Below the pieces are notes generated by a model that saw only the letters and a program-made list of their open reading frames with translations, was not told the DNA's origin and did not search any database. A stretch of 64,000 bases of DNA from a virus: positions 8,588-72,587 of the IMG/VR virus record IMGVR_UViG_3300035670_000150. One strand, written 5' to 3'. Within the stretch, counting starts at the first letter, position 1. Every line of letters begins with the position of its first letter. Shown here piece by piece: positions 16,101 through 58,120 of this stretch. A program made the position numbers and the translations under genes.

Positions 16101-19100
16101 CGTTAAATCGCGAATTGACTCCATCTGAGAGCTTATTACTGGATAAGCTGCCAGTCTTCATGGGAGGATTCGAAGCCCGCTTAAGAAGCTTGCTGCCATC
16201 TCCTGAAACTGTGTTGAGTAAACGTGGTTGGCAAAGTGTCTCTGCCCCACTTCACGCCTTCACACTGGAAGATGGTACTTTCAGCAAAGAGTTCACCGAA
16301 GCTATGGCTATCTCTGCGTTGGAATACTTGGAGAGCAATAGCTTATCTCTGATGGGAGATAACACCACAAGCATTGCTACCCTACTTGGTTTGGATACCA
16401 AGGACTTTGTACCTACTCGGGAACAATACGAAGCCTTGGGTAATGCAGGAAGCCCTTACGCTGACGTAGCACAAAAGCTTGGTGCCATTGCCCTTAAGAA
16501 CATGGGAATGAAGAAGGATTCTTCTAAGCCTCAAAATATCATGAATAACATGGAGTATGACTTAGGTCGGGCAATCATTGGGGCATTGAATGGAACTACC
16601 CGTGAGAATGGTATTCTGACAGTAACCAGCTATAAGATTAGTGATTTAGTGGCTCTTGGTGGTGATTACACTATCGACCCTAAAAACCCGCACGCCACTA
16701 TTGAATCCATTGCATTCAACCCTAAAGTGGTTGCTAGCTTCCTTGGGGTTAAAGATGTGTCCTCTATCTTTGGGGGCACTAATGGCTTATTAACTACCCT
16801 AACCAGTAATAAAGCTGAGTTACCTAAAGCAGAGATTGGTACTAAAACCCAAAAAGTGAGCAATTTTATTAGGCGCTCTAAAGGCCAAAAAGCGCCAAAA
16901 GAATTTGTAGAAGGTTTACAAAAAGATGCCAATGTACCTAATTACTTAGACTTGAATATGCATACGCTATTCAATGAATTAGGTAAAAATTGGTTTGCTT
17001 ATATGTTAGGCACACGGGATGCAAGCAAGGCTATTCTAGGTAAACGCCCTTCTATCGAAGGTAAGAATAAAACTGCTGAAGTGGACATTACTCGTTATGA
17101 AATGTTCCTAGCTCGTATGCAAGAGACAGCGGGCAATCTTACTGCTCCATTCTTCTATAACTACCGTATTGGTAAACAGCTACGGGCAAGTGCTATTGGT
17201 TCAGATATTAATTTCCAGACCTCTAAATTCCATCGGTATATGACTGCCATGGAACCAAGTGAAATTGATATGGTTAATGATACAAACCAATCATTCACTC
17301 TGTTCAAGTTGGGCGTAGCTCAAGGTTTAGGTTTCGGTGTAGACAAGAAGACAATTCAAGCCAGTTTAGCATTTTATGATAGCGTGTTAGCTGACCCTGT
17401 GTTCATGAATGGTGTCTATGCCATTAAGGAAATCTTAAGTGGTACACCTGCTACTGACGGCCATAGACAAGCCATTCTTGATGCAGTAGAGAAAGGCGAA
17501 GAAGCTACCCATTCCCTGAAATCGTTAACAGGTCTGGCCGAAATGCTTATGGCTACTGAGGGTAAATTCAATACCACAGTAACTCTTGAGCTTGATGGTG
17601 TGACTAACGGTGTAGCTAACGCCCATATCCAAATGGGATTGGCTATGCAGAATGGTAAGTTAACTGAAACTTCTCGTATTCGTTTAGCTCAGAGTGGGTT
17701 CTTCTTAGATGGTACTGAGACATACAACGAATGGATTAACCGTGCTGGTAATATGGATATGTACCAGTCAACGGCTGTTGCAGCTAACGTAGCTGAACAA
17801 GTATGGATTGAGGATTCAGCTAACCAAGATATGCTTGGTACTTTGGCTACTTTCAAGAAATACACAGGGGAATTAGTTAAGGAAACTATCGAAGGGGATT
17901 TGGCTGCTACGTCTGAAGGACGTAACTTTGTCAAGAACCCTATTACTACTACTGTGTATGCATCGGGTGCTAAAAGCCGTAGTGATAAGATGGCAGATAA
18001 GGTCATGGACAACCTATTAGATGCCGTTGAGAAAGCTGTTTTAGCTAATGATGTTCAAGCATTGAATGAGTTGAAACAGGACATCAGTACTCTTGCGGGT
18101 ATGAGAATCATCTTCCCTCGTAACATGATGGAATTTGAATTTAACTCTTTCATTGCTAAGGGTATTAAGTACTCATTCAGTAAATCGCTGGGTGCCATTG
18201 TCAACGAAGCAATTTCTAATGAGTATGCTAAACAATTAGATAACACTGCATTGGTCACTGAAACCAGTAACGTTATCTTTGATATGTTCAATGCTTTGTA
18301 TCAAACCAAGATTAAAGAAAAGTTAGCTGAATTGAGAAGTGCAGGTAAGTTAAGCACTTACGCTTACTTGTCTGAAGACCAATTGGATGAGATTAAAAAT
18401 TCCTTACTCCATACTATGCCCGTATTCAATTCTTTTTACGGTAACATCAGTAACGGGGTAATGACTGCCAAATACTCGGGCACTAGCAATGTAAGTAATG
18501 CGGATAAAGATGTGAAAGCTGCATTCCATCTTGGTTCTGCGTTAGGCCACAGAGGAAGCAACTACTCCTATACCGATGGTTACGAAGCTCCTGCTGCTGG
18601 TACTATGGCTATTCTAAACATCGCCTTCGGTGATGCTACAACCATGGCTAGAGCAGCATATAAGTCAGATGAGCCACTAGGATTAAACGTATTCGATGCT
18701 CGGTTAACCCGTATTGCTAACGTAGCCAATACTGCTACAGCATTAAACGAATCCGCTTATGAAGCAGTGACTTACCATAATCTGTTGGGCACAGTGAGTA
18801 AGCGTTTACAGGAAGCCACTAAAGAGTTTATGCAAAGTGGAGTAAGTAAAACTTACTCTCCTGAAATTAATGCTCTAGCCCATAAGGTGCTTGTGGCTCA
18901 TTACTCTGATGGGTTAAGCCTTATCAATGGTAAAGCCCATTACAAAAATAGCGATGGCAAACCAATTGCACTTGAAGATGCTGAAGTGGCTCAGTCATTT
19001 ACTCCTGATATGCTTGTGCGTTACATAGACAACTTGAATGCTCGTATGACTGCTGCCCATAAGCAAAGTCAAGAAGCTAAGCAAGTGCTGTACAAGTCAC

Positions 19101-22100
19101 TTAGCGTAAACCAATTCAGTTCCGTTACTGGTGGGGCTAAGTTTGCTAATGGTAAGAAGCAGGATGTACGTGACTTCACTATGGAAGAAGCGGCTAATGC
19201 CCAAGCCTCTTTAGAGACCCGTATCATTGAAACAGTGATGGACTCTACGGAACCTTTAACAGGAGATATTGACCAGACTTTAGCTAACTTAGAAGCTGTA
19301 TTACCTCCTGTTCAAGCAGAGACACCAAGTGTTGCCACGGTAGAGCCTAAGCTAGAAGCTATCATTGCAGGCCGTACTGAGTTCCCTCTTGCCGATATTC
19401 TGAATAATTTGAAAGACCTCACAGATATTCGTACTGCTAAAGCAATGCGGGAATTACTGAGTAATCTTCGTGGTTCGAATATTCAGGTAAGAATCTTAGG
19501 TGCCAATGAACAGAAAGTGATTGCTACTTCACTAGGCGAGATGAGCACAGAGTCCCTATACGGTTATTGGGAACCCAATGAAAAGGTCATCTACTTGCAA
19601 GGTACTCACTCCCCTAATTCAGGCGTGGCTATTGAAACACTTTTGCATGAGGCAATTCATGCGGCTTTGGATAGCAGACTAACCAGTATCGAAAAACAAC
19701 TCACTCAAGGTGTGAATGGAGGCCATACAGTTAAAGAGCTTAGTGCCTATAAGCACATTGAACAGATGCGAGCTAAGGCTAAAGAATTCTTAGATGCTGA
19801 CTCTACAGCCAACATTAAAGAGTTTATTGCATGGGGCTTATCCAATGCTAAAAACAGGGGTTTGTTAAGTAAACAACCAACCCGTATTAGGGCATTTGTT
19901 AAGGCTATCGTTACCCAATTGAAATTGATGCTCGGGCTGAAAACTCAAGATTCAAACATGCTTCTTGATTTACTTGCTGATGCCATGGTTATTGGTAAAG
20001 CAGGCACTGAGGTACGGAGTTCACTAGATAACACTATAGCAAGTTCTCCTCAAGTGGCTCATGATGCTACACGTTATATGGACTTAAACCAAATCTATGA
20101 CCATATTGCCAAAAGCAACACTAATACCATTACTGCAAGCCATGATGCCCATCTACGTGAGGTATTAAATAAGGCTGTTATCAAGGCCATTAACCCTACT
20201 CTGTTGGTTATCCCTGATAATGCTAAAACTTTATCTTCTCAGGATGCTGCTTTACTTCATGCATTAGACCCTGAAATTCGTAAAGACTTTGGTTTGTTGA
20301 CTGCTCTCAACTTCCGTGTAAGTGACCAAGAACTCATGGTCTATGCAACCTATAGCACTATCATTGGTTCAGCCTTAAATGACTTTGGTTGGAATACCCG
20401 TGAAATCCGTAGGATGTACGCCCATGCTAAGAAGAATCTAAGCTGGCGTGACTTTATTGGACAGGACAGTGTACTTGATACTGAGGCAGATAGAGCACGT
20501 TCTGAAAGTGAAGCTAGGGCAAGATACAATGCAGTATTTGCCAATACTCAGACTAATGATTATCTGCGTAACTTCATGGCCTTGGCTGCTACTAACGAAG
20601 CGTTCAGGGAAAGATTGGCTACTCTAACCACTCCACCAGCGGTAAGCAAAGCTATCAGAGGGGAAACTGTTAGAGACACTCTTAAAAATATTATTGAAGC
20701 TATCTTAAACTTTTTGAATGACTTAGCTATCACTCGTTCACATGAACCTACTGTGTTGGCTAAGTTAGACAAATTGGCTAAGAACATTCGTCACAGAGAA
20801 ATTAAAGAGAAGAATAAACTACAAAGTAAGATTATTAAATCTGCTAAGTTTGCTTCTAAAGTACTGAATACTGTGAATGAATTCAGTCGTATTAAGATTG
20901 ATAAAGCATTCGATAAAATGAAAAAGAAAGTGAGTAAACGCAGAATACTAAATGCTGCTGTAACTCTTTCTAGTGTGGTACTCAGTGAACGTAGAGCAAG
21001 TGAATTCGCTTTCGGTTTGGATACCATTCAGAACTTTATGACTACGGGTCGTGAGGGATTTGTATCTGCCTTATGGACAGACCTAAAAGGGACTGATGAT
21101 AGCAATATCCGTATTCATAGTTTGCTGGCAACGAAGAACAAGCTAATCGACCAAGAGACAGTGAACGTTAAAACCAATACTTCTGAATTGGTAAAATCCT
21201 TGTTTGGTAAAGAGCTTACTGATAAAGAAAGTGTAGCTGCTACTAAAGTACTGATAGCTCCTGACTTATCCAGCTTATTAACTAATGGCTATAGCTTTGC
21301 TCAAATTGCTAACTTCTTGAATAACCCTCTAGCTGTTAAAAATGAGGCGACTAGGCTGCAAGTGGCTATACGCCAACAGGCACCAAAAGGCACAGATGAG
21401 TATTTCATTAACCAAGCCAAGAACACTGCTCACATGATGATTAGAGGCTATCAGAAGTACCGAGGCCACGTTATGAGTAACGCTGCAACTATCGTTACTC
21501 TGTTCGGTACTGGTGAACCTAATCCCAATGCGAGTATGCAAGTTAGGACTATGGTAGATTCCTTGATTACTCTGGAAGCCTTGCAACTGGTTGACCCTGT
21601 GCAACTACAGATGATGAGCAATCTGTATAAGAGAGAGGCTGCTCGTAAAGGGGAAAACGGTGTTGAGTCCCTTTTGGCTATGCACAACGTAGTGAAAGAC
21701 AAAGTGCTTAAGAACACCTTCTTAGGTAATGAGTTCAACTATGTCAAAGGCCATACCACAGACATTACTGACCCTTACATGTCAATCCAGATTGCACCTA
21801 AGAGTATGGAAAATGAGCTGCTGATGCAGAACTATGAAAGGGTTGGGGAACCTCTCGTTAAGGATAAGCATGACCCAGTGGCAGAGCCAATGTATATGTA
21901 TGTGTCCAACTACGGGGGCGAAGCTACTTACCTGCAAGGAGCAATGTCTCTTGCAAGTAAAGGTGCTCGGGGTATGAGTGTGCTTGATGCTAATAACCAA
22001 GCAGGCAATGCCCTACCTATCTACAAACAGAAGGATTTGATTAACAAGATTCGTAGAGGCAAGGCCATTGATAACCAGAAGTTGTTCATGCCTAACCCTC

Positions 22101-23503
22101 CTTTGGCTGATAACGAATTAGTCCCTACCTTTGACAGCAAAGGACAAGTGATTGACTATCGTTATATTATGAAACAAGAAGTTAAGGATACTTTACTCAG
22201 AAGGGATAACAGGGTAGACCAAGTGTTTGGGGCTATGTCAGCGAGTGCTACCGTTAAGAAAAATACTGTAATAGTAAACTCAGCATTAATGAAAGCTCTC
22301 TATGACCAGTATAGCCATGACAGAAAGAACAATAATGTTAGGGGCTATTTGTTAGTTGAGCCTAATGCCAAGGATAAACAACTTGCTGAAATTTGGAATT
22401 TGATGCCACAAGAAGCTCAAAAAGAAGCTACTGCTTTATTTGGTAGAGAAGGCGTGTATGTCAGGAAGGATGTGATTAATGCAGCCTTTGGTTATCGTAA
22501 ATGGACTATAGCCAATCTTTGGAATCCAAATAATGATTATCCTGAAGTGGTCAAGAATGCCCTTAATCAGCTCATTACGAGCATTTATGGCAAAGCCCTA
22601 GCCAAGTTCCTTATGATGGGTGAAAGAGGGCTTCAGGAGATTGTTAAGGAGGCTAAAGACATTATCGTGATTAAATCGGTTGTGGTGCTTGCGAGTAACT
22701 TCATGTCTAACACAGTACAGTTGTTCCTGCTCCACGATGTGAACCCGATTAAAGCGGTGTCTGACCAGATAACAGCTATCACTGCTGCTCAGGAGTACAA
22801 CAAGAATGCTAAGGAGATATTCTTCTTGCAGGCTAAAGTAGATGCCAATATTGCAACCTCAGCTATGCGTTTGAAATTGCACCAATTGTTGCAAGACCAA
22901 GCAAGGAATCCAGTTAAAGGACTGATTGATGCAGGTATGCTACAAACGATTGTCGATGATGCCAGCGCCCAAGAAGACTTGTACTCGTTCAAGCATGGCT
23001 TAATTGGTAAGTTAGAGGAAGTGACTTCGGCCATTCCTGATGGGGTGAAAGAAGCCTTTAAGCAGGTTACTTTCCAACAGGGTTCTATAGCCTACGACTT
23101 TTTGAGAAGAGCTACGCAATTCTCGGACTTTGCTGCACGGTATGCATTGTATACCCACCAAGTAAATAATGAGGGAGTAAGCCACGACAAAGCCATTCAA
23201 AATATTATGGATGCTTTTGTTAACTACGACTTACCCCCACATAAAGCGATGCAGTACACAAATGATATGGGTATTACTTGGTTCTTTAAGTACTTCATAC
23301 GGATGCAGAAGGTTATTGTGAAGAGTTTCAGGAAGAATCCTGCCAAGGTATTAAGCTTATCTGTTGGGGCAGACATGTTAGGAATTAACATACCTACCCC
23401 GCTAGATGCTTTTGCTCCGTTCGTGGATGTGAATAGAAAGATTGGACTAATAGATGGTTTTAGCATGGCTGCTAATGCCCTTCCATTAGCCAAGGTGTTC
23501 TAA
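13199..23503 (+). CDS. Virion-encapsidated RNA polymerase (N4 gp50-like)
   Basis: 3434 aa with no Cys found; motif A ELDGVTNG, motif B RNFVKNPITTTVYASG, motif C NVFDA; HEAIH motif in the C-terminal region. Confidence 0.97.
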   Translation: MAKTPLDTAYDEILSPAEQKLAAAVEASNKDLAVIADIRKSYLDAQTARVRDRAESPNAVVSDTDLSTFTGQLTNLAISAGAKTVSVLGDVIQAPAKLWRENELASANITQEDIDNYWSLKNKQVQEAAGMNLLEDYTEAEKALTKPNIGKTRGVGTYMTTHDAPSKAQTLDAFFEGEKNAQVSRTYVYDAFSRYANDLKKNEVMADAKKTYEENKKDVVQGFEELRKGDLAGIGKMVSAADKMGADALVTLFTNPSGTAQLAAEAIPTAVMAAISAPLSAAAYGTSYIRDAEDMYRREYKKMPLGTDRAIMVSGSMLAGAVGTYADRLLGRAVVNSIGGNATKVAGEVAEDVAQGSLKEGAKKVTQELVDTALGIAATATKEGITEATEQAINEYSGKQDIDKMDGAEIFANGVAGFGAGGMLAGGATAVGKVNDFAKSAKASIVAKEATKTVLAADAKADEATSEQGVVNPEVRKGADLSSSLGIAKVIRNARTVLEKDETDQGTREDTILFAKHALSSIDNRLDATAEKLLDVEDMSKVEGISEDAKELLNSTKNELLKEQKRLQKIKDENAEKITAEYDALVSNPEVYEAAKSRLTAEKLDELADMDTQAVPLDEESDTTETDTTPTVDNTLDKDAALLAASSLVTDKVTPEDLEAAANSSKISPQRATQLKETAILNRLIDVAKSSAMVAKDIIEGGEGFVGIKQYQQRITEHLNSGSLRTAARDLTSLGKFAAHHEAKAKAYEAALVQAQNAPKGTRIEVAGFRTLPTKANPKGNPVTLDANAGKLVNSVRQEADLVKSAFTSLANQVTAFMPKQNTAKPETAPTETAPKAEAPKTEAPKAEPVVQETVNKTEPEAKPEEKTSEPETVSEPTASVQEQTVQEQVAEEQAVEEQVTEEQEDTSPNPITKSVNQGSRAGLKPKHLVNEADAQHLMTNPVTLFKRIKRGVLWAINYRDTNAVMEALNRELTPSESLLLDKLPVFMGGFEARLRSLLPSPETVLSKRGWQSVSAPLHAFTLEDGTFSKEFTEAMAISALEYLESNSLSLMGDNTTSIATLLGLDTKDFVPTREQYEALGNAGSPYADVAQKLGAIALKNMGMKKDSSKPQNIMNNMEYDLGRAIIGALNGTTRENGILTVTSYKISDLVALGGDYTIDPKNPHATIESIAFNPKVVASFLGVKDVSSIFGGTNGLLTTLTSNKAELPKAEIGTKTQKVSNFIRRSKGQKAPKEFVEGLQKDANVPNYLDLNMHTLFNELGKNWFAYMLGTRDASKAILGKRPSIEGKNKTAEVDITRYEMFLARMQETAGNLTAPFFYNYRIGKQLRASAIGSDINFQTSKFHRYMTAMEPSEIDMVNDTNQSFTLFKLGVAQGLGFGVDKKTIQASLAFYDSVLADPVFMNGVYAIKEILSGTPATDGHRQAILDAVEKGEEATHSLKSLTGLAEMLMATEGKFNTTVTLELDGVTNGVANAHIQMGLAMQNGKLTETSRIRLAQSGFFLDGTETYNEWINRAGNMDMYQSTAVAANVAEQVWIEDSANQDMLGTLATFKKYTGELVKETIEGDLAATSEGRNFVKNPITTTVYASGAKSRSDKMADKVMDNLLDAVEKAVLANDVQALNELKQDISTLAGMRIIFPRNMMEFEFNSFIAKGIKYSFSKSLGAIVNEAISNEYAKQLDNTALVTETSNVIFDMFNALYQTKIKEKLAELRSAGKLSTYAYLSEDQLDEIKNSLLHTMPVFNSFYGNISNGVMTAKYSGTSNVSNADKDVKAAFHLGSALGHRGSNYSYTDGYEAPAAGTMAILNIAFGDATTMARAAYKSDEPLGLNVFDARLTRIANVANTATALNESAYEAVTYHNLLGTVSKRLQEATKEFMQSGVSKTYSPEINALAHKVLVAHYSDGLSLINGKAHYKNSDGKPIALEDAEVAQSFTPDMLVRYIDNLNARMTAAHKQSQEAKQVLYKSLSVNQFSSVTGGAKFANGKKQDVRDFTMEEAANAQASLETRIIETVMDSTEPLTGDIDQTLANLEAVLPPVQAETPSVATVEPKLEAIIAGRTEFPLADILNNLKDLTDIRTAKAMRELLSNLRGSNIQVRILGANEQKVIATSLGEMSTESLYGYWEPNEKVIYLQGTHSPNSGVAIETLLHEAIHAALDSRLTSIEKQLTQGVNGGHTVKELSAYKHIEQMRAKAKEFLDADSTANIKEFIAWGLSNAKNRGLLSKQPTRIRAFVKAIVTQLKLMLGLKTQDSNMLLDLLADAMVIGKAGTEVRSSLDNTIASSPQVAHDATRYMDLNQIYDHIAKSNTNTITASHDAHLREVLNKAVIKAINPTLLVIPDNAKTLSSQDAALLHALDPEIRKDFGLLTALNFRVSDQELMVYATYSTIIGSALNDFGWNTREIRRMYAHAKKNLSWRDFIGQDSVLDTEADRARSESEARARYNAVFANTQTNDYLRNFMALAATNEAFRERLATLTTPPAVSKAIRGETVRDTLKNIIEAILNFLNDLAITRSHEPTVLAKLDKLAKNIRHREIKEKNKLQSKIIKSAKFASKVLNTVNEFSRIKIDKAFDKMKKKVSKRRILNAAVTLSSVVLSERRASEFAFGLDTIQNFMTTGREGFVSALWTDLKGTDDSNIRIHSLLATKNKLIDQETVNVKTNTSELVKSLFGKELTDKESVAATKVLIAPDLSSLLTNGYSFAQIANFLNNPLAVKNEATRLQVAIRQQAPKGTDEYFINQAKNTAHMMIRGYQKYRGHVMSNAATIVTLFGTGEPNPNASMQVRTMVDSLITLEALQLVDPVQLQMMSNLYKREAARKGENGVESLLAMHNVVKDKVLKNTFLGNEFNYVKGHTTDITDPYMSIQIAPKSMENELLMQNYERVGEPLVKDKHDPVAEPMYMYVSNYGGEATYLQGAMSLASKGARGMSVLDANNQAGNALPIYKQKDLINKIRRGKAIDNQKLFMPNPPLADNELVPTFDSKGQVIDYRYIMKQEVKDTLLRRDNRVDQVFGAMSASATVKKNTVIVNSALMKALYDQYSHDRKNNNVRGYLLVEPNAKDKQLAEIWNLMPQEAQKEATALFGREGVYVRKDVINAAFGYRKWTIANLWNPNNDYPEVVKNALNQLITSIYGKALAKFLMMGERGLQEIVKEAKDIIVIKSVVVLASNFMSNTVQLFLLHDVNPIKAVSDQITAITAAQEYNKNAKEIFFLQAKVDANIATSAMRLKLHQLLQDQARNPVKGLIDAGMLQTIVDDASAQEDLYSFKHGLIGKLEEVTSAIPDGVKEAFKQVTFQQGSIAYDFLRRATQFSDFAARYALYTHQVNNEGVSHDKAIQNIMDAFVNYDLPPHKAMQYTNDMGITWFFKYFIRMQKVIVKSFRKNPAKVLSLSVGADMLGINIPTPLDAFAPFVDVNRKIGLIDGFSMAANALPLAKVF

Positions 23504-23694
23504 CTATCCTTATCTTTGTTGGTTCCCCTAATGTCCCTGATGATTACTAGGGCTAGGGGAATTGCAATTAGGATACCTGCTATTAAGGCAAGAACAGGGA
23601 GAATCAGGGGGATAAAGACTATAAGTCCTATCCCCACTGCAACTACTAGAATAGCTAAGAACAGTTCCCAAAGACCTGTCAGCAAATTCCACAT
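23500..23694 (-). CDS. Small membrane protein
   Basis: 64 aa, two hydrophobic helices and a charged tail; converges on the vRNAP stop. Confidence 0.65.
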   Translation of the reverse strand: MWNLLTGLWELFLAILVVAVGIGLIVFIPLILPVLALIAGILIAIPLALVIIRDIRGTNKDKDS

Positions 23695-23704
23695 AGTTAC
23701 CTAC

Positions 23705-24178
23705 TTATAAGAAAGGGTCTTCCTCTTCTTCTTCTTCATCCGCAAAAGCGTTTTCCGCTACTTCAGGTGCAGCTTTTGGCTTACCTTTACCCGCTTTCTT
23801 AGCAGCGGTTTCAGGTGCTGCTGTCTCTTCTTGGAATGGGTCTGTATCTTCCGTTTCGAGGAAAGCTGATGCAGGGTCTTTTTGTTGTTCAGTTGCAGGC
23901 GCTTCTTCTTCGACAGGAAGCTCCACTTCTTCATCCCAACCGTTATCGGTGCCATTGTCTGCCACTTCGGCAACTTTAGTAGGTGATTGAGCACTGGCAT
24001 CAATTGGCTCCATATGGGCTTCAATCATCGCTTCGATAGTCGGAGGATTTCTGCGAGCCACAAATGAAATGGCGCTAATCACAATGTTGGGGTCATGTGC
24101 AGCAACCTTATCAATGATAAGCTGCTTAAGGCCAGCTTCATCAATTTTGATACTTACGCTACGTGTGATTTCTAACAT
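23705..24178 (-). CDS. Hypothetical protein with acidic disordered C-terminus
   Basis: GAGG RBS; ends EEEEEEDPFL. Confidence 0.7.
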   Translation of the reverse strand: MLEITRSVSIKIDEAGLKQLIIDKVAAHDPNIVISAISFVARRNPPTIEAMIEAHMEPIDASAQSPTKVAEVADNGTDNGWDEEVELPVEEEAPATEQQKDPASAFLETEDTDPFQEETAAPETAAKKAGKGKPKAAPEVAENAFADEEEEEEDPFL

Positions 24179-24186
24179 GCTTACCT

Positions 24187-24585
24187 CTATATGATTTCTT
24201 TAATGTAAATAGTTACCCTTGGGTTGGCTTTATCTATGCCACCAAAGGCAAAGCGTTCTTCGACAATAACTTGGTAGTTATCGTCAGGTATTTTCCCCAT
24301 TTCAGTCAGAGCGTCCGTAAAGAATTTAGCAATGATAGTGCAGATGTTGTGTGTATCGCAGAGACGGGCGTTACCCACAAAGAGTACATACTTCACCATT
24401 ATAGGATGTTGAAAAGTAGGTAATTTCTCTATCTGTTCTTGCATTAACTTTTTGTACTCTATCTTCATACTGTTCAGGGTGTGGAAATGAGCATTCCTGT
24501 AAATATTCAGATTGAGAGCAAAATCCTTTGCACGTACCCTCTTAATCTTCAATGGGGAAAAAAGGGTGTAAAACTTGGTGCTCAT
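24187..24585 (-). CDS. RusA-like Holliday junction resolvase
   Basis: LNLNIYRNAHF N-terminus; D-x-x-N...KFFTDAL...IPDDN acidic catalytic pattern. Confidence 0.75.
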   Translation of the reverse strand: MSTKFYTLFSPLKIKRVRAKDFALNLNIYRNAHFHTLNSMKIEYKKLMQEQIEKLPTFQHPIMVKYVLFVGNARLCDTHNICTIIAKFFTDALTEMGKIPDDNYQVIVEERFAFGGIDKANPRVTIYIKEII

Positions 24586-24603
24586 ACAGTACCCCTAAGT
24601 AAT

Positions 24604-24623
24604 AAGCCCCTATACAGGGGCTT
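24604..24623 (-). terminator. Terminator hairpin downstream of SSB
   Basis: AAGCCCCT-ATAC-AGGGGCTT. Confidence 0.7.
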
Positions 24624-24647
24624 TGGTTACTTTAGCACTGAGGAAGC

Positions 24648-25454
24648 TTAAGCGAAAGGGTCTTCTTCGTCAGCATCCATAGGAGCTGATTCTTGTACTG
24701 GTGCCTGTTTAGAAGCTGTAGCAGGAGTACCTTCTTCTTCGGCACCAAACAGGTCGGAGGTATCAGTAGGAGTACTGAATGGGTTATCCCCCATGCTAGT
24801 ACCAACTGCACCTTCGATTGGCTTGTAGGTGTTTTTAACATTGCCTGTCCAATGCTTAACCCAATCGTTATACATCTTGGGTTCTGTCTTGCCATTGGCC
24901 ACTTCTTTAGGGGTCAGGTCATTGGCAGCATTAAACACCATATGGATTTCGTTGGTTTCCCGCTTATCATTGGTTGCAGCACCGTTTTTGAAGCCGTTGC
25001 TAATCACTTTGATGATACCGAGTTTGACCAGCTTCTTGCACATCATAGGCAACACTGGCACTGTCTGAGGAATCTCTTTGCGAGATTCAGCATCGTACAG
25101 GTCAATGGTTTTTTTCTGCTTGGCTTTGAACACTTCCATAAATGGTTTGCCACAAGTAGCCAAGCACAGGTTGTCCAAAAGTTGATACCCGGGTAATTTC
25201 ACTGCTTTACCTGATTTCTTGTTCATGTAGAACACTTCACCTTTGGCATTAGTGAAATACAGGGTATAACGACGTTCATCACCTTCTTTGTTTTTGGTGG
25301 TGAGGTTTACCGCAGAAGCACCTTTAGCGGATTGGGTGATGTAGGCTTCAGTAATAATTACCTTCTGAATACCGCTATCATCAGCCGACCAACCGCCTAC
25401 GCTTTCTGTGTTGTCTTCTACGTTCTCACCAAAATTGATATTGTTAATATCCAT
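24648..25454 (-). CDS. ssb: Single-stranded DNA-binding protein (N4 gp45-like)
   Basis: DSGI....IT.AY...S.KGA, Y...K.G....LPGY and R..NEI motifs; position after the gp44-like ATPase. Confidence 0.8.
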   Translation of the reverse strand: MDINNINFGENVEDNTESVGGWSADDSGIQKVIITEAYITQSAKGASAVNLTTKNKEGDERRYTLYFTNAKGEVFYMNKKSGKAVKLPGYQLLDNLCLATCGKPFMEVFKAKQKKTIDLYDAESRKEIPQTVPVLPMMCKKLVKLGIIKVISNGFKNGAATNDKRETNEIHMVFNAANDLTPKEVANGKTEPKMYNDWVKHWTGNVKNTYKPIEGAVGTSMGDNPFSTPTDTSDLFGAEEEGTPATASKQAPVQESAPMDADEEDPFA

Positions 25455-26176
25455 TATTTTGCCTCATTAAATGCTTTGAGTTTATTTAAGACATGCATGA
25501 TGTTGTTATCAATGAATGTCTCTTCGCGTTTCCACAAGCCCTTAGTGGAACGGATATTTAAACCCACTCCCATAGCTGTCTTGCGGGTTTGGAATACGTA
25601 TTTACCTTCGTCAATGCGTTCATCTTCAGTGATGTTTAGCATTGGGTTGGCATATTCTTCCAAGTCTGAGAGGTCTACGTAATCCGCAAACACAATGTTT
25701 GTAAAGAAACTTTCGATACCCCTGTTAGCTGTTGAGCCTTTTACTGCAATTGCGAGTTTTGACCTCCCTTTTATATCCTTAGCCATTTCCACATGGCATA
25801 GGAAAATGATGGGCTTATTACATGAGGCTACCCCTGATTGGAACAAATCAAGGATGAAGTCTCGGTATTTATCCCAAATTTGGAATTTGTCATCTGCAAC
25901 ACGCTTTGCGTGCATCTCTTGCATATCCAAGGCAGATGTCAAAGTGTCGATAATGATACCAGCACACTTAGGATTGTTGGCACCTTCTTTTACCCAATGC
26001 GTTAAAGTCGCGGGAGAGGTCACAACAACCTCTTTAAACTTATGGGCAAAGGGCAAAGGTTTATTGGTTTCACAGTTAAGGTAAAGCCAGCTTTGTTGGT
26101 TTGGAATATACTCCAACGAGGCTGACTTTCCGTTACCTGCTAAACCACATACTGCAACTATGTAGTCATTAGCCAT
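25454..26176 (-). CDS. AAA_24/Sak4-like ATPase (N4 gp44-like)
   Basis: Walker A GLAGNGKS; YLNCE..K.LPF; IIIDT; GIESFF. Confidence 0.85.
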   Translation of the reverse strand: MANDYIVAVCGLAGNGKSASLEYIPNQQSWLYLNCETNKPLPFAHKFKEVVVTSPATLTHWVKEGANNPKCAGIIIDTLTSALDMQEMHAKRVADDKFQIWDKYRDFILDLFQSGVASCNKPIIFLCHVEMAKDIKGRSKLAIAVKGSTANRGIESFFTNIVFADYVDLSDLEEYANPMLNITEDERIDEGKYVFQTRKTAMGVGLNIRSTKGLWKREETFIDNNIMHVLNKLKAFNEAK

Positions 26177-26178
26177 GG

Positions 26179-28335
26179 TTACTTTTTACCTTTAATCGAT
26201 TTGAGAATAGTCTCTTCAAGTTCCTTACTACTTAACGGGTCGTCAAGTAATTCGTTAACTTCAATGACTGCCGCCTCTATCTTATCAATGCCAACTTTTT
26301 GCTCCGCTAGGAAAGCTGCATAACGATATAGGGTTTGGTTTCTGTTCCCTTCAGTAGCTGTCCGTACTACCCAACGCTTCATTCCACCTACAGAGACCAT
26401 CTTACCTTTGGTGGTTTCCAGCTCTTCAGAACGCTGCGTATTTGGATAATAGGGCATTACCCCTAGGTTGATACCATCCAACTTACTAAACACCTTAGAG
26501 CCTGCGTAATAGCGGTATTTGCGTTCACGCTGAATAGCTGGAATATCCACAGTCACTGGCAACCAATAAGCAATGTTTTTACACAGTGCTCGGTACTGGT
26601 CTTCTTCCAATGTGACTTTATGTGACAATGGCAGAATGAGTCTGTACCGTGGGTCTTGCTCAGTGTGGGACTTAGTGGTGTAAATGATGTGGTTGTACTC
26701 ACCTAAAATCTTCGAGAGAAACTCGGGTTTGATTTTGGTTTGGTCAACATCAAATACCACCATATTAGCGCCCGCTATTGTGGTATCCCGTGTACGTCTA
26801 CCGTTCCCCACCTCACCATTTTCAAAGTGGTGATTACAGAAGTTACCTGTTTTGGATGCAAAGAATGCGGGTAACTTATGGAATGGGGGGGTATTGTTGG
26901 TGTACTTATCCGCGAACTCAGTTGAGGTCGATAGGATAGCTTTGCTTAGGTCGTTCTCTTCCAGTTTGGTTCCCTTGTAGAACATGACGTTAGCCTCTTT
27001 GTAGGCTGTGATAGCCAAGGCATTCTTATAGCCATAGGACATGGCTAAGTTAATCAAGTCCTTTTTGGATGAAACAGAACCAGAATAAAAAGGTAAATAC
27101 TCAACCAAATCCGCTTCCGTTACAGGGGTGCCAAAGTCAGCTAAGAAGTTAGCCAAACGAATGTGCGCCCTTGGTTGGTTTAGGATTTTGTAGAGTGATT
27201 CCCCTGAACGTTCTGCAATAGCAATGGCATTCTGTAAGTGCAGGATAGACACTTCATTTTTGCCATCACAGAATGCATAGGCAGCAGCAAGCTTAAGCGC
27301 CTTAACATGCCTATGGGTCATTTCAGTACGCTCAATAGGGCGGTATTCTGAAATCATCTCAGCACGGGTTTTGCAGAAGTCTTGATAGTCCATACGGAAC
27401 TTTTCAGCATCTTCCCCTACATAGATGGTCTTACCCACAAGGGCAATATCAGCAAGGCGTTTAAAATGCTTTCTGATAGCCATAACTTCGTTCTGAGTGT
27501 TCTTGTCCGTTAAGGTCTTGAATATCTCATCACGGGTCTTTTTATTGACGTTCTTAAGGTTGAGGTCACCATAGGCAAAGAAGCAGCGTCTGCCATAGCC
27601 TGTTTTTAACCAGTTGAGGAATATTTCTTCTACCTTACCGCCATCGAATACGTTGACTGGTGTACCGAAGGCAAACACGTTAGCAGGGGTATAACCTTTA
27701 ACAGGTCTTGCCCGCTTGTTTTCCTTGGTGGCCTTAATCAACTTATCCTTGGTGAACCCTACGTCATAGAGTTCAAGGAAGGTAGCAATGATTTCCCCAT
27801 TGTTGGTTAGGTTTGAACCTATTTCATCCATCTCAAGACTGGCAGCACCACAGCGAGCCAAGTTAATTGACTTGCATAGTTGCTTCAGTGCAGGTGAAGT
27901 ACCTTCAGGGAATGCATAGAGGAAATGGCCGTTCTGAGTAAAGTCAGTCAGCAATTCCGCTTCCACATCACTTGAGTCTTCCCCTGTCTTAGCTGCAATT
28001 TCCATAGCCAAATCGGTAATGGATTTCTTAGCACGGTTAGGGTAAGTCGAGTGAACGAACTCTTCCTCGAAGTCACAGAAAATTTCATTTTCCATGATGT
28101 TCTGAGAGTAGTTTTTACCATAGCCTGATTCAGCAAACGCAATAGCAAAAGCATTCACAGGCATTTTATTGTTTGTGATAGTTTGCACAGAGACATGCAT
28201 ATTACTGGCTAACTTACACAAGTAGTAAGCAGTCTCTATTCGGAAGAACATCCTGTCTTGGTTCTGTACCTGAGTACATACCAAATCAATAATCTTCTCC
28301 GAAAGATGATGATACGGGAATGACGTTACTAGCAT
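26179..28335 (-). CDS. DNA primase/replication protein (N4 gp43-like)
   Basis: SGYGK, DEIGSN and LELYD.G..KDKL motifs; FDVD, YTTKSH, RYRLILP primase-polymerase-like motifs; C-terminal EGNRN PriCT-like motif. Confidence 0.85.
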   Translation of the reverse strand: MLVTSFPYHHLSEKIIDLVCTQVQNQDRMFFRIETAYYLCKLASNMHVSVQTITNNKMPVNAFAIAFAESGYGKNYSQNIMENEIFCDFEEEFVHSTYPNRAKKSITDLAMEIAAKTGEDSSDVEAELLTDFTQNGHFLYAFPEGTSPALKQLCKSINLARCGAASLEMDEIGSNLTNNGEIIATFLELYDVGFTKDKLIKATKENKRARPVKGYTPANVFAFGTPVNVFDGGKVEEIFLNWLKTGYGRRCFFAYGDLNLKNVNKKTRDEIFKTLTDKNTQNEVMAIRKHFKRLADIALVGKTIYVGEDAEKFRMDYQDFCKTRAEMISEYRPIERTEMTHRHVKALKLAAAYAFCDGKNEVSILHLQNAIAIAERSGESLYKILNQPRAHIRLANFLADFGTPVTEADLVEYLPFYSGSVSSKKDLINLAMSYGYKNALAITAYKEANVMFYKGTKLEENDLSKAILSTSTEFADKYTNNTPPFHKLPAFFASKTGNFCNHHFENGEVGNGRRTRDTTIAGANMVVFDVDQTKIKPEFLSKILGEYNHIIYTTKSHTEQDPRYRLILPLSHKVTLEEDQYRALCKNIAYWLPVTVDIPAIQRERKYRYYAGSKVFSKLDGINLGVMPYYPNTQRSEELETTKGKMVSVGGMKRWVVRTATEGNRNQTLYRYAAFLAEQKVGIDKIEAAVIEVNELLDDPLSSKELEETILKSIKGKK

Positions 28336-55593: not shown

Positions 55594-56147
55594 ATAGCTT
55601 TTAATTAGTGTCATAAAGACACTAAAGAAGAAGAGTATTGAGGAGTATCAGAGGATTGAGAGACATGCTTTTTACAATGCTCTTATTCATGCTCTTTACA
55701 TTAAGATTATATAAAGAGTACTGTAAGGATATACAGTATGTATATAAACAGTAGTAATTAAAGGAATTTTACTTAGGATTAGGGGAATTAAATACAGTGT
55801 TTTTAATATGTTTTATATGTATAGATTGTCAGTAATGTATAGGTGAACAGTATTGACAAAGAGGAATAGAGGAGTAAAGATAATAGAGATAATGATATTA
55901 GATAGATATGATAAATACAGTAAATATACACTTACTTCAATTACTTACTCTATATATACAGTGAGTAGAATATACATTAGTAATAAGCAATATATAAATA
56001 TATATCTAATACCTATTGACATAGATATGTATACTTATAAAGATAATAGATAGACTATACAAGATATATCTTATATAACTAAATAGTCTTAAGAGTATAT
56101 CAGACTATCATAATGTGTTATGTGTTTGTGTTTGTGTTAAGAGTTAA

Positions 56148-56171
56148 TAACCCTACCATTAGGTAGGGTTA
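56148..56171 (-). terminator. Terminator after the first early gene
   Basis: TAACCCTACC-ATTA-GGTAGGGTTA. Confidence 0.75.
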
Positions 56172-56178
56172 GAGTTAC

Positions 56179-56406
56179 TTAGATATTCCAAGTAGACTTC
56201 TCTTGTTCATACTTCTTATCGACCTTTTTATTGAGGTCTTCAAGACGTTTCTTAATCAGAAGGTCTTGTTCATCTACCATACCTTTAGTGAATTTCTCAC
56301 CAATGGTAGCTACGTTTTCTACTGATGCTAATGTTTTATCAATAGTACTGAATACACGTACTATTGAATTACATGCTGCATTCCATACACGAGAGATAGA
56401 AGACAT
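56179..56406 (-). CDS. First early gene, N4 gp1-like position (amphipathic helical protein)
   Basis: AAGGAG RBS; own promoter motif and terminator. Confidence 0.65.
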   Translation of the reverse strand: MSSISRVWNAACNSIVRVFSTIDKTLASVENVATIGEKFTKGMVDEQDLLIKKRLEDLNKKVDKKYEQEKSTWNI

Positions 56407-56596: not shown

Positions 56597-56632
56597 AAAA
56601 AAAAAAATAGCTCTATTATTTATAGAGCTATT
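56597..56632 (-). terminator. Rho-independent terminator after the Acb4-like gene
   Basis: AATAGCTCTAT-TATTT-ATAGAGCTATT with an A11 tract on the left. Confidence 0.85.
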
Positions 56633-56645
56633 CAGTAAATAATTA

Positions 56646-57080
56646 TTACTTGTTTAAATTTGCCTCATATAATTCCTGACATTTCATATACCCTTCCAAT
56701 GGCCATATCTTATTAACAGCATTTTCTAATGCTATTCTAGTGCCAATAGCTTTTCTACCATTCTCAACACTAACAGAGACAGAAGGTTCACCAGTAACAC
56801 CGAATCCATTAATCATATTGATTACAACTGTTCGTTGTACCTTACCTGTGAGAGTAACGTGAGTAACCATTTCAATGGTATCAATCTTATCCATGATGTG
56901 TTGAGGTAATACCCGTTTAGCATCATCGGTATTATGAGCCTTAATCATGGGTTCATACTCATTGAGGATGTACTCTACTAACTCTTTGGTTAGGTAGTCC
57001 ACTGAGCATGAATGAGCACGTATTGGTGTAGCCTGTGTATCGACTTGCTTAGTTACTTGCTTAGTTACTTGTTCAGTCAT
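56646..57080 (-). CDS. Phage_gp49_66-family (Acb4-like) cyclic nucleotide sponge candidate
   Basis: NGFGVTGE.S.SVS.EN....IG..IA.ENAVNKIWPLEGY family signature; ATG at 57080 with AAGGA RBS. Confidence 0.78.
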   Translation of the reverse strand: MTEQVTKQVTKQVDTQATPIRAHSCSVDYLTKELVEYILNEYEPMIKAHNTDDAKRVLPQHIMDKIDTIEMVTHVTLTGKVQRTVVINMINGFGVTGEPSVSVSVENGRKAIGTRIALENAVNKIWPLEGYMKCQELYEANLNK

Positions 57081-57254
57081 AAATAAATCCTTTCTTTGGT
57101 TACTTACTTTGGTTATGGGAATTTTCTTAAAACGCATAGGAACGATTTTAAGAAGAGTTCTCTACATAGCCTATACGATGGCATAGGGATAATAGAGAAC
57201 TCTCATCTATGGATTGATTTGAGGGCTTCTTGCTATTATTCAGTGCTATTCTAC

Positions 57255-57833
57255 TTACTTATTCTCCATCCTAGCACGTACAAAACAGTCTTTAGCTTCG
57301 AGTAGTTTGCGCAACCCAGCCGATTTTTCAGCACAGTTAGGCAGTGACTCATCCAGCATACTTGCTATTTCAGATAGCGGTTTGCTAACTTCTTTTAGGG
57401 CATCTGGTAGATGGGCGTAAGTGAAATATTTGAGTATGTCACTTTTACTTTGTTGGTGTTTCCCGCTAGGCACAGGCTCATAAGTCTTTTCAAATATATC
57501 AGGCTTGCAAGGGTAGTGTTCACCGTTAACCCCTGTGATAATCCAGTCAGCAGGACAGACTATATGGCCGCCTTCCAAAGTATCAATCCAACCATGCTCA
57601 TGCATAGTTAAGCCACAATGCTTACAGGTGGATTCCCCTGATACTTCAGGGGTTCTAAAGTATCTAACAATATCCCCTTCCCACCCGTTGGCTTTACGCT
57701 CTTCCACAGTGCATACGCGCAGCTTTCCACCCTCAAATCCATCGTGTGACTTACTGTAGTCAAGGGGATGGTCTCCGTTCTTAAACCATTGAGTAGCTTC
57801 AATGATGACGGGCTTTTTCTTAAACTTAGTCAT
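57255..57833 (-). CDS. Two-domain fusion: KKPVxIEA/YPCKPDIF domain plus Acb2/Tad1-like helical hairpin
   Basis: N-terminal KKPVIIEATQW...TLEG...DWII.GV.GE.YPCKPDIFEKTYE; C-terminal YFTYAHLP..L..VSKP...EKSAGLRKLLEAKDCFVRA. Confidence 0.7.
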   Translation of the reverse strand: MTKFKKKPVIIEATQWFKNGDHPLDYSKSHDGFEGGKLRVCTVEERKANGWEGDIVRYFRTPEVSGESTCKHCGLTMHEHGWIDTLEGGHIVCPADWIITGVNGEHYPCKPDIFEKTYEPVPSGKHQQSKSDILKYFTYAHLPDALKEVSKPLSEIASMLDESLPNCAEKSAGLRKLLEAKDCFVRARMENK

Positions 57834-57973: not shown

Positions 57974-58009
57974 AAAAAAAGAACCCTTAGAGTCCCTATT
58001 CTCTAAGGG
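57974..58009 (-). terminator. Terminator-like hairpin in the divergent intergenic region
   Basis: CCCTTAGAG-N8-CTCTAAGGG with a left A-tract. Confidence 0.6.
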
Positions 58010-58120
58010 CTAAAACCCACCTTATCATCGGAGTAGTAAAGCAAGATAGGTTGTATTCTACTTTGTTTTAGTTACTATACTCATCCTATAGCAGAAATTT
58101 CAAAAAGAAAAGGTAAGAGT

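What the first reader, a model, noticed from the sequence alone, without database searches (positions are those of the whole stretch)
57255..57833. Fusion of a KKPVxIEA/YPCKPDIF domain with a Cys/His insertion to a sponge-like hairpin
The first ~120 aa are a common phage domain to which I cannot assign a function; here it carries a CKHC..MHEH..HxxC insertion that may bind metal. A short linker joins it to a ~60-aa AHLP...LRKLLEAKDC.VRA hairpin that I recall mostly as a stand-alone gene. Fusion to a sponge-like domain and adjacency to an Acb4-like gene suggest the N-terminal domain also binds or cleaves an immune signal. The Acb2/Tad1 relationship of the hairpin is itself inferred.
Basis: partly seen in the sequence, partly recalled or inferred. 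Interest (0 to 1): 0.8.

Follow-up and report, generated by a model that had tools for sequence, protein, structure and literature searches.

The report
Zinc domain fused to sponge hairpin
An N4-like phage has joined a very common, very conserved zinc-binding domain of unknown function to a small helical module that looks like the phage "sponges" that soak up bacterial alarm molecules, so the unknown domain is a good candidate for testing as a new immune-evasion part.

Summary
ORF 57255-57833 (minus strand, 192 aa) is real and has two modules that usually occur as separate genes.

The C-terminal module (aa ~132-190) is a short helix followed by two long antiparallel helices. It belongs to a highly conserved clade of ~62-aa proteins. 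Pfam's Acb2/Tad1 hairpin model (PF24729) does not detect it. Profile-profile comparison does link it to proven PF24729 members (68.6%, E 4.6e-5), at least as strongly as two proven PF24729 clades link to each other (44%). Fold and language-model searches agree. It is most likely a nucleotide-signal sponge, with an unknown ligand.

The N-terminal module (aa 1-~122) belongs to a very large family (17,301 cluster representatives). It has an invariant C70/C73/H80/C93 site, a confident fold and no match among solved structures. Relatives fuse it to Tad2, Acb4, Sequestin and this hairpin, but most partners are unknown and most neighbours are DNA-metabolism genes. Its function is not established.

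The next gene is an Acb4-family gene, followed by a terminator-like hairpin, so the two form a cassette.

The scan had noted PGDYG-like domains fused or adjacent to sponge genes on other DNA. I did not check those notes.

Verdict: a new variant of a known kind, and a worthwhile target for experiments.

The parts
57255..57833 (-). Whole ORF, 192 aa plus stop: N-terminal zinc/PGDYG-like domain, short linker, C-terminal helical hairpin
   Evidence: A 97%-identical full-length protein, P0002, and a 64%-identical one, P0003, exist elsewhere.
57468..57833 (-). N-terminal domain, aa 1-122, long form of the KKPV...YPCKPDIF (phrog_419/4502/1810, weakly PGDYG-like) family
   Evidence: PHROG hits at 2.6e-32, 2.6e-23 and 2.5e-13. 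PGDYG scores only 15 bits against a cut-off of 27. AlphaFold2 model has pLDDT 92.2 and pTM 0.81 and is mostly beta. No PDB fold match; best Foldseek E is 0.56.
57555..57626 (-). Putative CCHC zinc site: C70, C73, H80, C93 (aa 70-93)
   Evidence: Across 309 distinct long-form sequences: C70 in 302, C73 in 309, H80 in 309, C93 in 309. H90 is in 286, H78 in 248 and H72 in 189. Metal binding is inferred, not shown.
57441..57467 (-). Linker, aa 123-131 (SGKHQQSKS)
   Evidence: Low pLDDT (mean 56) for the first 10 residues of the aa 120-192 model. It lies between the two PHROG-matched stretches.
57258..57440 (-). C-terminal hairpin module, aa 132-192: short helix 132-137, long helices 144-163 and 168-190. 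A divergent Acb2/Tad1-hairpin-like clade (phrog_1761/5120).
   Evidence: Model pLDDT 89.5. 25 invariant columns across 35 family members. hhalign to proven PF24729 clade A7 gives 68.6%, E 4.6e-5. 15 of the 50 BFVD Foldseek rows shown are named Acb2/Tad1 hairpin proteins. 22 of the 30 nearest Atlas clusters carry PF24729.
56646..57137 (-). Downstream neighbour, 163 aa, Acb4 family (PF13876) in aa 79-152
   Evidence: Pfam 9e-12, 45.8 bits, cut-off 27. It is the only PF13876 match in the 72,587-bp genome record.
56605..56633 (-). Terminator-like hairpin (12 pairs, 5-nt loop, T run) 13 nt after the Acb4-like stop codon; closes the two-gene unit
   Evidence: The region had 3 terminator-like sites against 1.1 expected from shuffles.
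57982..58011 (-). Hairpin with T run in the 287-bp gap between this gene and the divergent gp69-like/terminase block; role unknown
   Evidence: The sigma-70-like site at 58103-58074 is not above chance: 6 sites found against 7.1 expected.

Best explanation
The gene encodes a two-module counter-defence protein. Together with the Acb4-family gene that follows it, it forms a two-gene anti-signalling cassette in the variable block that diverges from the gp69-like/terminase genes of an N4-like phage. The C-terminal ~60 aa are a divergent member of the Acb2/Tad1 hairpin superfamily. By analogy with Acb2, I infer that the two long helices build a homo-oligomer. The short N-terminal element (I-x-K-Y-F-x-Y-x-H-L-P), together with the helices of neighbouring protomers, would form pockets that hold a nucleotide immune signal (a CBASS or Thoeris type molecule; which one is unknown) away from the host effector. 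The N-terminal ~120 aa are a separate, autonomously folding domain with a probable structural CCHC zinc site and an invariant G-D-H-P-x-D / E-G / D-W surface. It is a promiscuous N-terminal module that also occurs alone. In this protein it most likely adds either a second ligand-binding or ligand-processing activity, or an oligomerising or accessory role. Shown: the domain boundaries, conservation, folds, family links and gene neighbourhood. Inferred: oligomerisation, ligand binding, zinc binding and any activity of the N-terminal domain.
For: Hairpin. The predicted structure is a short helix plus two long antiparallel helices. That matches the Acb2 protomer core as described in bioRxiv 10.1101/2025.08.24.671296 (passages read). 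The hairpin-family HMM hits two ORFs that pass PF24729 (42.9 and 45.2 bits) at E 0.008 and 0.009 among 10,158 local ORFs; the next hit is at E 3.2. hhalign of family A3 against their clade A7 gives 68.6%, E 4.6e-5 over 50 columns. The control between two proven PF24729 clades, A7 and T4 Vs.4 family A6, gives 44%, E 2.3e-4. The A7 HMM hits 3 of the 5 hairpin-fused proteins at E<=1e-3. 9 of 35 family members give sub-threshold PF24729 hits, best E 0.039. A profile search of PDB sequences gives a weak collinear match to Acb2 homolog 43 (9PTQ, a 3'cADPR sponge), E 0.64, sharing LPxxxEKSxxxxKLxEA. BFVD and Atlas results agree.

Context. The next gene is Acb4 family and is followed by a terminator-like hairpin. 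Fusions of two sponge domains are documented for Acb4-Tad2 and Acb4-Sequestin (bioRxiv 10.64898/2026.06.04.730250).

N-terminal domain. Relatives are fused to Tad2-like, Acb4 and Sequestin domains. 10 of the 32 longer proteins among the 121 nearest carry a sponge-type partner. Atlas clusters with a similar fold carry PF24729 (55 members), Sequestin (332) and Tad2-like (432). In 80 IMG/VR loci, a sponge gene lies within two genes in L011, L059, L060, L066 and L078, and the domain is fused to Tad2 in L011, L045 and L061.
Against: Pfam's PF24729 model does not detect this hairpin at E<=10. hhalign of the family against the T4 Acb2 clade gives only 0.2%. Foldseek against solved structures, which include Acb2 and Tad1 entries, gave nothing below E 2.6. 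In the A3-A7 alignment, the column that is an invariant Arg in A7 is an invariant Ser in this clade (that the A7 Arg corresponds to the T4 and PaMx33 ligand-binding Lys is my own reading). So the ligand, and even binding itself, cannot be read off.

For the N-terminal domain: 22 of 32 and 106 of 109 longer relatives carry none of the sponge models. Only 1 of 149 sampled neighbour ORFs has a sponge Pfam family; the rest are nucleases, methylases, recombinases and thymidylate synthases. None of the 10 annotated neighbours scanned around the SPO1-like phage copy hit a sponge family. No ligand, oligomer or expression data exist.
Confidence: 0.55

Rival explanations
1. The N-terminal zinc domain is the active anti-defence part: a new sponge, or a metal-dependent hydrolase of a signalling nucleotide. 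The hairpin then serves mainly to oligomerise it, or adds a second specificity.
For: Conservation is extreme for a phage accessory protein. G20, D21, H22, D25, C73, H80 and C93 are each present in 309 of 309 distinct long-form sequences, and identity across very different contigs is 60-80%. That fits a fixed small-molecule or universal target. The domain is fused to four sponge families and to MazG / PRA-PH nucleotide pyrophosphohydrolases. The fold is confident and has no solved relative. The long-form domain is stand-alone in most cases, so it must work on its own.
Against: There is no known catalytic motif or family match. Sponge partners are a minority, and the neighbours are mostly DNA-metabolism genes. 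Known sponges are reported as highly divergent in sequence (10.1101/2025.08.24.671296, passage read), unlike this family.
Confidence: 0.25
2. The N-terminal domain is a dimerising or scaffolding module without anti-defence activity of its own, like the N-terminal beta domain of RyR Tad gp68. Only the hairpin acts on signals.
For: [quoted passage not shown] Our domain is almost always at the N-terminus of very diverse partners: 102 proteins have C-terminal extensions against 11 with N-terminal extensions, out of 266. Short and long forms are exchanged in front of an otherwise 86-87% identical remainder.
Against: gp68_N falls in other PHROGs (phrog_872/9467, not 419/4502/1810). hhalign finds no relation. 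A pure scaffold would not need an invariant polar surface plus a zinc site, nor would it be maintained as a stand-alone gene in thousands of phages.
Confidence: 0.2
3. The protein has nothing to do with immune signalling. It could be, for example, a zinc-containing nucleic-acid- or host-protein-binding regulator with a helical dimerisation tail, sitting in a variable accessory region by chance next to an Acb4-family gene.
For: Neighbours of stand-alone copies are mainly replication, recombination and methylation genes. The hairpin fails Pfam's model. Helical hairpins are easy to match by chance: all PDB Foldseek rows are weak. Partners also include Ea22-like and DUF551-like segments.
Against: Four independent kinds of evidence tie the hairpin to PF24729. 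The N-terminal domain is repeatedly fused or adjacent to four sponge families. No DNA-binding family is matched.
Confidence: 0.15

Closest known systems
Acb2 (PaMx33 Acb2, T4 Vs.4, Acb2_43 / PDB 9PTQ); Pfam PF24729 Acb2/Tad1 hairpin
   Same: Both are small and have two long antiparallel helices preceded by a short N-terminal element carrying an aromatic residue and His/Pro. They share an LPxxxEKS...KLxEA loop and helix pattern with Acb2_43. Both are phage-borne, mostly stand-alone genes.
   Different: This hairpin is not detected by PF24729. There is no detectable profile link to the T4 clade. It is much more conserved: 25 invariant columns over 35 sequences. The basic ligand-contact column is Ser here (my reading). 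In this gene it is fused behind a 120-aa domain. The hexamer and the ligand are untested.
Tad1
   Same: The overall layout matches: an N-terminal beta domain followed by two C-terminal helices of the Acb2/Tad1 hairpin type (10.1101/2023.11.15.567273, passage read).
   Different: The N-terminal domain here is about twice as large, binds zinc (inferred), occurs alone and joins many partners. Foldseek against solved structures gave no match at all. So this is a parallel in architecture, not membership.
Two-sponge fusions: Acb4-Tad2 (phage Pm86) and Acb4-Sequestin (phage Ab09 gp59)
   Same: Two small modules that also exist as separate genes are joined in one polypeptide in a phage anti-signalling locus. 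Relatives of our N-terminal domain carry exactly these partners.
   Different: In those fusions both halves are proven sponges. Here one half has no known function.
RyR Tad (Pectobacterium phage CB1 gp68)
   Same: It comes from an N4-like phage and has a small N-terminal beta domain of unknown function, 'often a single ORF', fused to a C-terminal all-helical sponge domain.
   Different: The PHROGs differ for both halves, and there is no profile relation. gp68 lies in the primase-vRNAP hotspot. The present gene lies in the block diverging from the gp69-like/terminase genes.
PGDYG protein family (PF14083)
   Same: The C-terminal third of the N-terminal domain (CP-G/A-DW...YP) gives weak matches to the start of the PGDYG profile. 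One phage record names a relative 'pgdyg protein'.
   Different: The score is below the cut-off: 15 bits against 27 here, and 15 of 98 fused relatives reach only E<=1e-3. PGDYG itself has no known function. No paper on it turned up: the search with PGDYG, WDGH, PF14083, PF25311 and DUF4406 listed none containing PGDYG, PF14083 or PF25311.

Membership tests
Acb2/Tad1 hairpin (PF24729) | Passes Pfam's own model (gathering score 27 bits) | tested here: not met
   No hit at E<=10 for the window's hairpin, and none in the six-frame search of the genome. 9 of 35 clade members give sub-threshold hits, best E 0.039. The positive control, T4 Vs.4, scores 71.4 bits.
Acb2/Tad1 hairpin (PF24729) | Profile-level homology to proven members | tested here: met
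   A3 against A7 (a clade whose members score 42.9 and 45.2 bits on PF24729) gives 68.6%, E 4.6e-5. The control A7 against A6 gives 44%. A3 against A6 gives only 0.2%, so the link is indirect.
Acb2/Tad1 hairpin (PF24729) | Protomer with two long antiparallel helices plus an N-terminal ligand-contacting element | tested here: met
   Model with helices at aa 132-137, 144-163 and 168-190, pLDDT 89.5. 15 of 50 BFVD rows are named for this family; the best named row has 34% identity, TM 0.62 and E 0.036. Foldseek on solved structures found none.
Acb2/Tad1 hairpin (PF24729) | Ligand-contact residues (PaMx33 Y11 for stacking, K26 for the salt bridge) | tested here: inconclusive
   An aromatic residue sits at the aligned position (Y139; Y/F/H in the clade). 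The basic column is an invariant Ser, S150, with K151 beside it. The residue roles come from passages read in 10.1101/2023.06.01.543220. The correspondence of columns is my own reading.
Acb2/Tad1 hairpin (PF24729) | Homo-hexamer that sequesters cyclic nucleotides or gcADPR | not tested
   No oligomer prediction of the hairpin was run. Binding needs biochemistry.
Tad1 | N-terminal antiparallel beta-sheet domain of Tad1 type in front of the hairpin | tested here: not met
   The N-terminal domain model has no PDB match (best E 0.56), although Tad1 structures have been solved. PDB sequence searches also found nothing.
PGDYG (PF14083) | Passes the Pfam model | tested here: not met
   15 bits against a cut-off of 27, covering only aa 94-126.
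RyR Tad N-terminal domain (phrog_872/9467 type) | Sequence or profile similarity to gp68 aa 1-86 | tested here: not met
   The PHROG families do not overlap. hhalign gives 0.1% and 0.3%. The gp68 structure is not in the PDB copy, so folds could not be compared.
Acb4 (PF13876), the neighbouring gene | Passes the Pfam model | tested here: met
   45.8 bits and 46.8 bits, cut-off 27. That PF13876 is the Acb4 family comes from passages read in 10.1101/2024.12.30.630793.

The most novel reading that the evidence does not exclude
The ~120-aa CCHC zinc domain (long form of the KKPV...YPCKPDIF / PGDYG-like family) is itself a new family of phage inhibitors of nucleotide immune signalling, either a sponge or a metal-dependent hydrolase. 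It is one of the most widespread such families, present in thousands of phages of Gram-negative, Gram-positive and actinobacterial hosts. Fusion-based screens have missed it because it has no Pfam model.
Probability: 0.25. Interest if true: 0.85.

Novelty: new variant of a known kind. Interest (0 to 1): 0.6.

Why it matters
Phage sponges decide whether CBASS, Thoeris and Pycsar work, and new ones were recently found by asking what is fused to known sponges. That search used Pfam families only. The N-terminal domain here has no Pfam model. It is nonetheless fused in relatives to Tad2, Acb4, Sequestin and an Acb2/Tad1-like hairpin. It occurs in 822 of 50,697 isolate phage genomes, is unusually conserved, and has a confident fold with no solved relative. 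That makes it a concrete, cheap target: express the domain and test it against a panel of signals. Separately, the ~62-aa hairpin clade (1865 clusters, 329 isolate phage records) would extend the Acb2/Tad1 family to a group that current annotation calls hypothetical.

Tried and rejected
Sequence searches of solved structures found nothing usable, whether with the whole protein (best E 0.69) or with profiles of each half. The only lead was the weak Acb2_43 match.

NCBIfam found nothing. Megablast of 4 kb around the gene against isolate phages found no match.

Foldseek against the PDB gave no match at E<=0.001 for either half.

Alignment A1 (full-length proteins plus both kinds of stand-alone proteins) misplaced the hairpins. 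I did not use it for folding; the halves were folded separately.

hhalign of the hairpin clade against T4 Vs.4 alone and against its family found no relation. The link had to go through clade A7.

Local iterative HMM searches for Acb4, Tad2, Sequestin and Acb2 in 160 IMG/VR loci found only 3, 7, 1 and 0 ORFs. These home-made models are narrow.

For the neighbourhood test I scanned 149 of the 267 eligible de-duplicated ORFs within two genes of the N-terminal-domain genes (random sample, seed 1; ORFs over 600 aa were dropped), plus one inserted sequence. Only 1 carried PF24729. Enrichment is therefore not demonstrated statistically. ORF calling in these loci was a crude longest-first heuristic.

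The SPO1-like phage copy had no sponge family among the 10 annotated neighbours I scanned.

Relation to RyR Tad gp68_N was not found, and its structure is not in the PDB copy.

The literature search for PGDYG, WDGH, PF14083, PF25311 and DUF4406 returned nothing relevant. A search with Sequestin, Tad2, Acb4, fused and zinc turned up no paper describing this domain in its listing. I read only parts of the papers named in this report.

Complex prediction on two copies of the N-terminal domain with zinc gave no verdict (score 0.22, mark 0.42). It counts neither for nor against.

I dropped my first idea that the gene is the first early gene. In phage Pollock the equivalent block is the small-gene and tRNA region between gp69 and the terminal repeat. 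The sigma-70-like promoter hit is at chance level. The expression class is therefore unknown. I did not use the sequencing-run tools.

Supplementary tables were closed. I could not check whether this hairpin clade is among the 4,204 Acb2 homologues of 10.1101/2025.08.24.671296, or whether the N-terminal domain appears in the tables of 10.1101/2025.07.12.664507.
Full report
WHAT IS THERE. PHROG profiles split the protein cleanly. Residues 1-130 match phrog_419, 4502 and 1810 (E 2.6e-32 to 2.5e-13). Residues 118-191 match phrog_1761 and 5120 (E 2.3e-28 and 5.6e-22). All five families have unknown function. Pfam gives nothing above threshold; there is only a 15-bit PGDYG match over aa 94-126. NCBIfam and the sequences of solved structures give nothing.

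GENOME CONTEXT. The window is the last 64 kb of a 72,587-bp virus record judged 98% complete. It is an N4-like phage:
- a 3434-aa virion-RNAP-sized ORF at 13199-23503;
- two N4-type RNAP II subunit genes and rIIA;
- a terminase, and an N4 gp69-like gene at 58121.

The focal gene is the first gene of the minus-strand block that diverges from the gp69-like/terminase block. In phage Pollock the equivalent place holds small unknown genes and tRNAs running towards the terminal repeat. Directly downstream lies a 163-aa gene whose aa 79-152 pass the Acb4 family model PF13876 (45.8 bits, cut-off 27). The link between PF13876 and Acb4 comes from passages read in 10.1101/2024.12.30.630793. Thirteen bases after its stop codon there is a 12-pair hairpin with a T run. 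The two genes therefore look like one cassette.

The genome has no other match to PF13876, PF11195 (Tad2), PF21825 (Sequestin) or PF24729, and only one copy of the N-terminal domain. The cassette is not in the primase-vRNAP 'anti-signalling hotspot' described for N4-like phages (10.64898/2026.06.04.730250, sections read).

THE C-TERMINAL MODULE. Searched alone, aa 120-192 find 1865 proteins of 40-128 aa, typically ~62 aa. They also match 329 isolate phage records (Vibrio, Erwinia, Acinetobacter, Brevibacterium, Gordonia, Mycobacterium and others), nearly all annotated as hypothetical. In IMG/VR, 77 of 80 such ORFs are <=90 aa. The clade is unusually uniform: 25 invariant columns in 35 sequences, including H-L-P and E-K-S-A-G-x-R-K-L-L-E-A-K-D-C-F-V-R. 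AlphaFold2 predicts a short helix (aa 132-137) and two long antiparallel helices (144-163 and 168-190) with pLDDT 89.5.

IS IT AN Acb2/Tad1 HAIRPIN? Evidence against:
- Pfam's PF24729 does not see it.
- hhalign against the T4 Vs.4 clade gives 0.2%.
- Foldseek on solved structures gives nothing.

Evidence for:
- 9 of 35 clade members give weak PF24729 hits.
- The clade HMM picks out, among 10,158 ORFs, exactly two non-members at E~0.008, and both pass PF24729.
- A 30-sequence alignment of their clade matches ours at 68.6%, E 4.6e-5. That clade matches the T4 Acb2 clade at only 44%.
- The reverse HMM finds 3 of the 5 hairpin fusions.
- The PDB profile search gives a collinear, non-significant match to Acb2 homolog 43, a 3'cADPR sponge (10.1101/2025.08.24.671296, passages read).
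- 15 of the 50 BFVD Foldseek rows shown are 'Acb2/Tad1 hairpin domain-containing protein'.
- 22 of the 30 nearest Atlas clusters carry PF24729 on part of their members.

I conclude that it is a divergent clade of that superfamily. The ligand cannot be inferred. In Acb2 proteins the N-terminal element sets specificity. Here the aligned aromatic residue is kept, but the basic column is Ser (the column correspondence is my own reading).

THE N-TERMINAL MODULE. This is a very large family:
- 5917 near-length hits;
- 17,301 cluster representatives at E<=1e-3;
- 822 isolate phage records from Mycobacterium, Bacillus, Gordonia, Staphylococcus, Streptococcus, Acinetobacter, Vibrio and others.

The Cys/His-bearing long form is itself common and mostly stand-alone. 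Over 309 distinct long-form sequences, C70 is present in 302 and C73, H80 and C93 in all 309. G20, D21, H22 and D25 are also invariant. That points to a CCHC zinc site plus a conserved polar patch; both are inferences. The AlphaFold2 model is confident (pLDDT 92.2, pTM 0.81) and mostly beta. It has no Foldseek match among solved structures (best E 0.56).

Two fusions, P0110 and P0123, share 86-87% identity with the window's protein over the last 110 aa but have an unrelated 46-aa short form in place of the first 82 aa. Long and short forms have therefore been exchanged within one gene context.

FUSIONS AND NEIGHBOURS OF THE N-TERMINAL MODULE. Of 266 family proteins fetched, 102 have C-terminal extensions of >=40 aa, which fall into 82 clusters. 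Only 11 have N-terminal extensions.
- Among the 121 nearest proteins, 32 are longer than 140 aa. Ten of those carry a sponge-type partner: 4 Tad2-like, 4 this hairpin (including the query), 1 Acb4 and 1 Sequestin. The other 22 carry none of these.
- Among 149 more distant representatives, 109 are longer and only 3 carry such partners. Pfam on 98 proteins gave 1 Acb4, 1 Tad2, 1 PRA-PH and 1 MazG.
- The Atlas finds similar folds in clusters carrying PF24729 (55 members), Sequestin (332), Tad2-like (432) and WDGH (91). These are leads only.
- In 80 IMG/VR loci, an Acb4 gene follows within two genes in 3 (L011, L060, L066). A PF24729 gene precedes within two genes in 2 (L059, L078). The domain is fused to Tad2 in 3 (L011, L045, L061).
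- In two near-identical hairpin loci the order is hairpin, Tad2, short-form domain.
- A Pfam scan of 149 sampled neighbours found only one sponge family member, among nucleases, methylases, recombinases and thymidylate synthases. The SPO1-like copy has no recognisable sponge among the 10 annotated neighbours scanned.

The association with sponges is real but partial. I could not test it statistically.

HOW IT PROBABLY WORKS. See Best explanation. The layout of beta domain plus hairpin parallels Tad1 and RyR Tad. The habit of joining two anti-signalling modules parallels Acb4-Tad2 and Acb4-Sequestin. The hairpin is the part with a defensible mechanism: an oligomeric sponge. The N-terminal domain may be a second binding or processing module, an oligomerising accessory or something unrelated. 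The RyR Tad precedent, where the N-terminal domain was inactive alone, is a warning, although I could not show the two domains to be related.

NOVELTY. The hairpin clade is an unannotated branch of a known sponge superfamily. The fusion is rare: full-length long-form fusions are P0002 and P0003, and short-form fusions are P0110 and P0123. The N-terminal domain is uncharacterised. I found no paper on it in the two searches listed. The scan's earlier notes on other genomes also record PGDYG-like domains fused to WDGH-like or Sequestin-like domains beside sponge candidates. I did not check those notes.

Noticed in passing
protein P0122 (database protein, 3743 aa): A giant protein matches aa 83-122 of the N-terminal domain (the GDWII...YPCKPDIF part) in 29 separate stretches. 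This sub-motif therefore also exists as a long tandem repeat array.
   Followed up: no
protein P0266 (153 aa): Two copies of the hairpin module sit in tandem in one polypeptide.
   Followed up: no
L143:3977-4779 and L147:3580-4382 (IMG/VR): Three consecutive small genes: hairpin of this clade, Tad2-like (96 aa), and short-form KKPV/PGDYG-like domain (97 aa).
   Followed up: partly
L011:4001-5142 (IMG/VR): A long-form N-terminal domain is fused to Tad2-like (216 aa) and immediately followed by an Acb4-family gene (143 aa). This is the same layout as the window, with Tad2 in place of the hairpin.
   Followed up: partly
L059:3501-3974 (IMG/VR): A 157-aa protein has a proven PF24729 hairpin at aa 93-149 and an unidentified ~90-aa N-terminal part. 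It lies directly upstream of a stand-alone long-form domain gene.
   Followed up: partly
window 55600-56180: An AT-rich stretch of about 600 bp has no convincing ORF and is dense in TATA-type palindromes. It lies between the cassette and the next small genes. It may hold the physical genome end or promoters.
   Followed up: no
window 56646-57137: The Acb4-family match covers only aa 79-152 of the 163-aa ORF. The first ~78 aa (with a QVTKQVTKQV repeat) match nothing, and the true start may be further in.
   Followed up: no
window 23503-26179: This is the region between the vRNAP-sized ORF and the primase-sized ORF, which is the anti-signalling hotspot of N4-like phages in 10.64898/2026.06.04.730250. 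Genome-wide searches here found no match to PF13876, PF11195, PF21825 or PF24729 in it. Its small genes were not examined further.
   Followed up: partly
proteins P0006, P0011, P0028, P0032, P0077, P0081: The largest unknown partner of the N-terminal domain is a ~60-aa tail starting SIPDIKELV...ALxLYRKQGG. It is present in 6 of the 102 C-terminally extended proteins and has no Pfam family.
   Followed up: no
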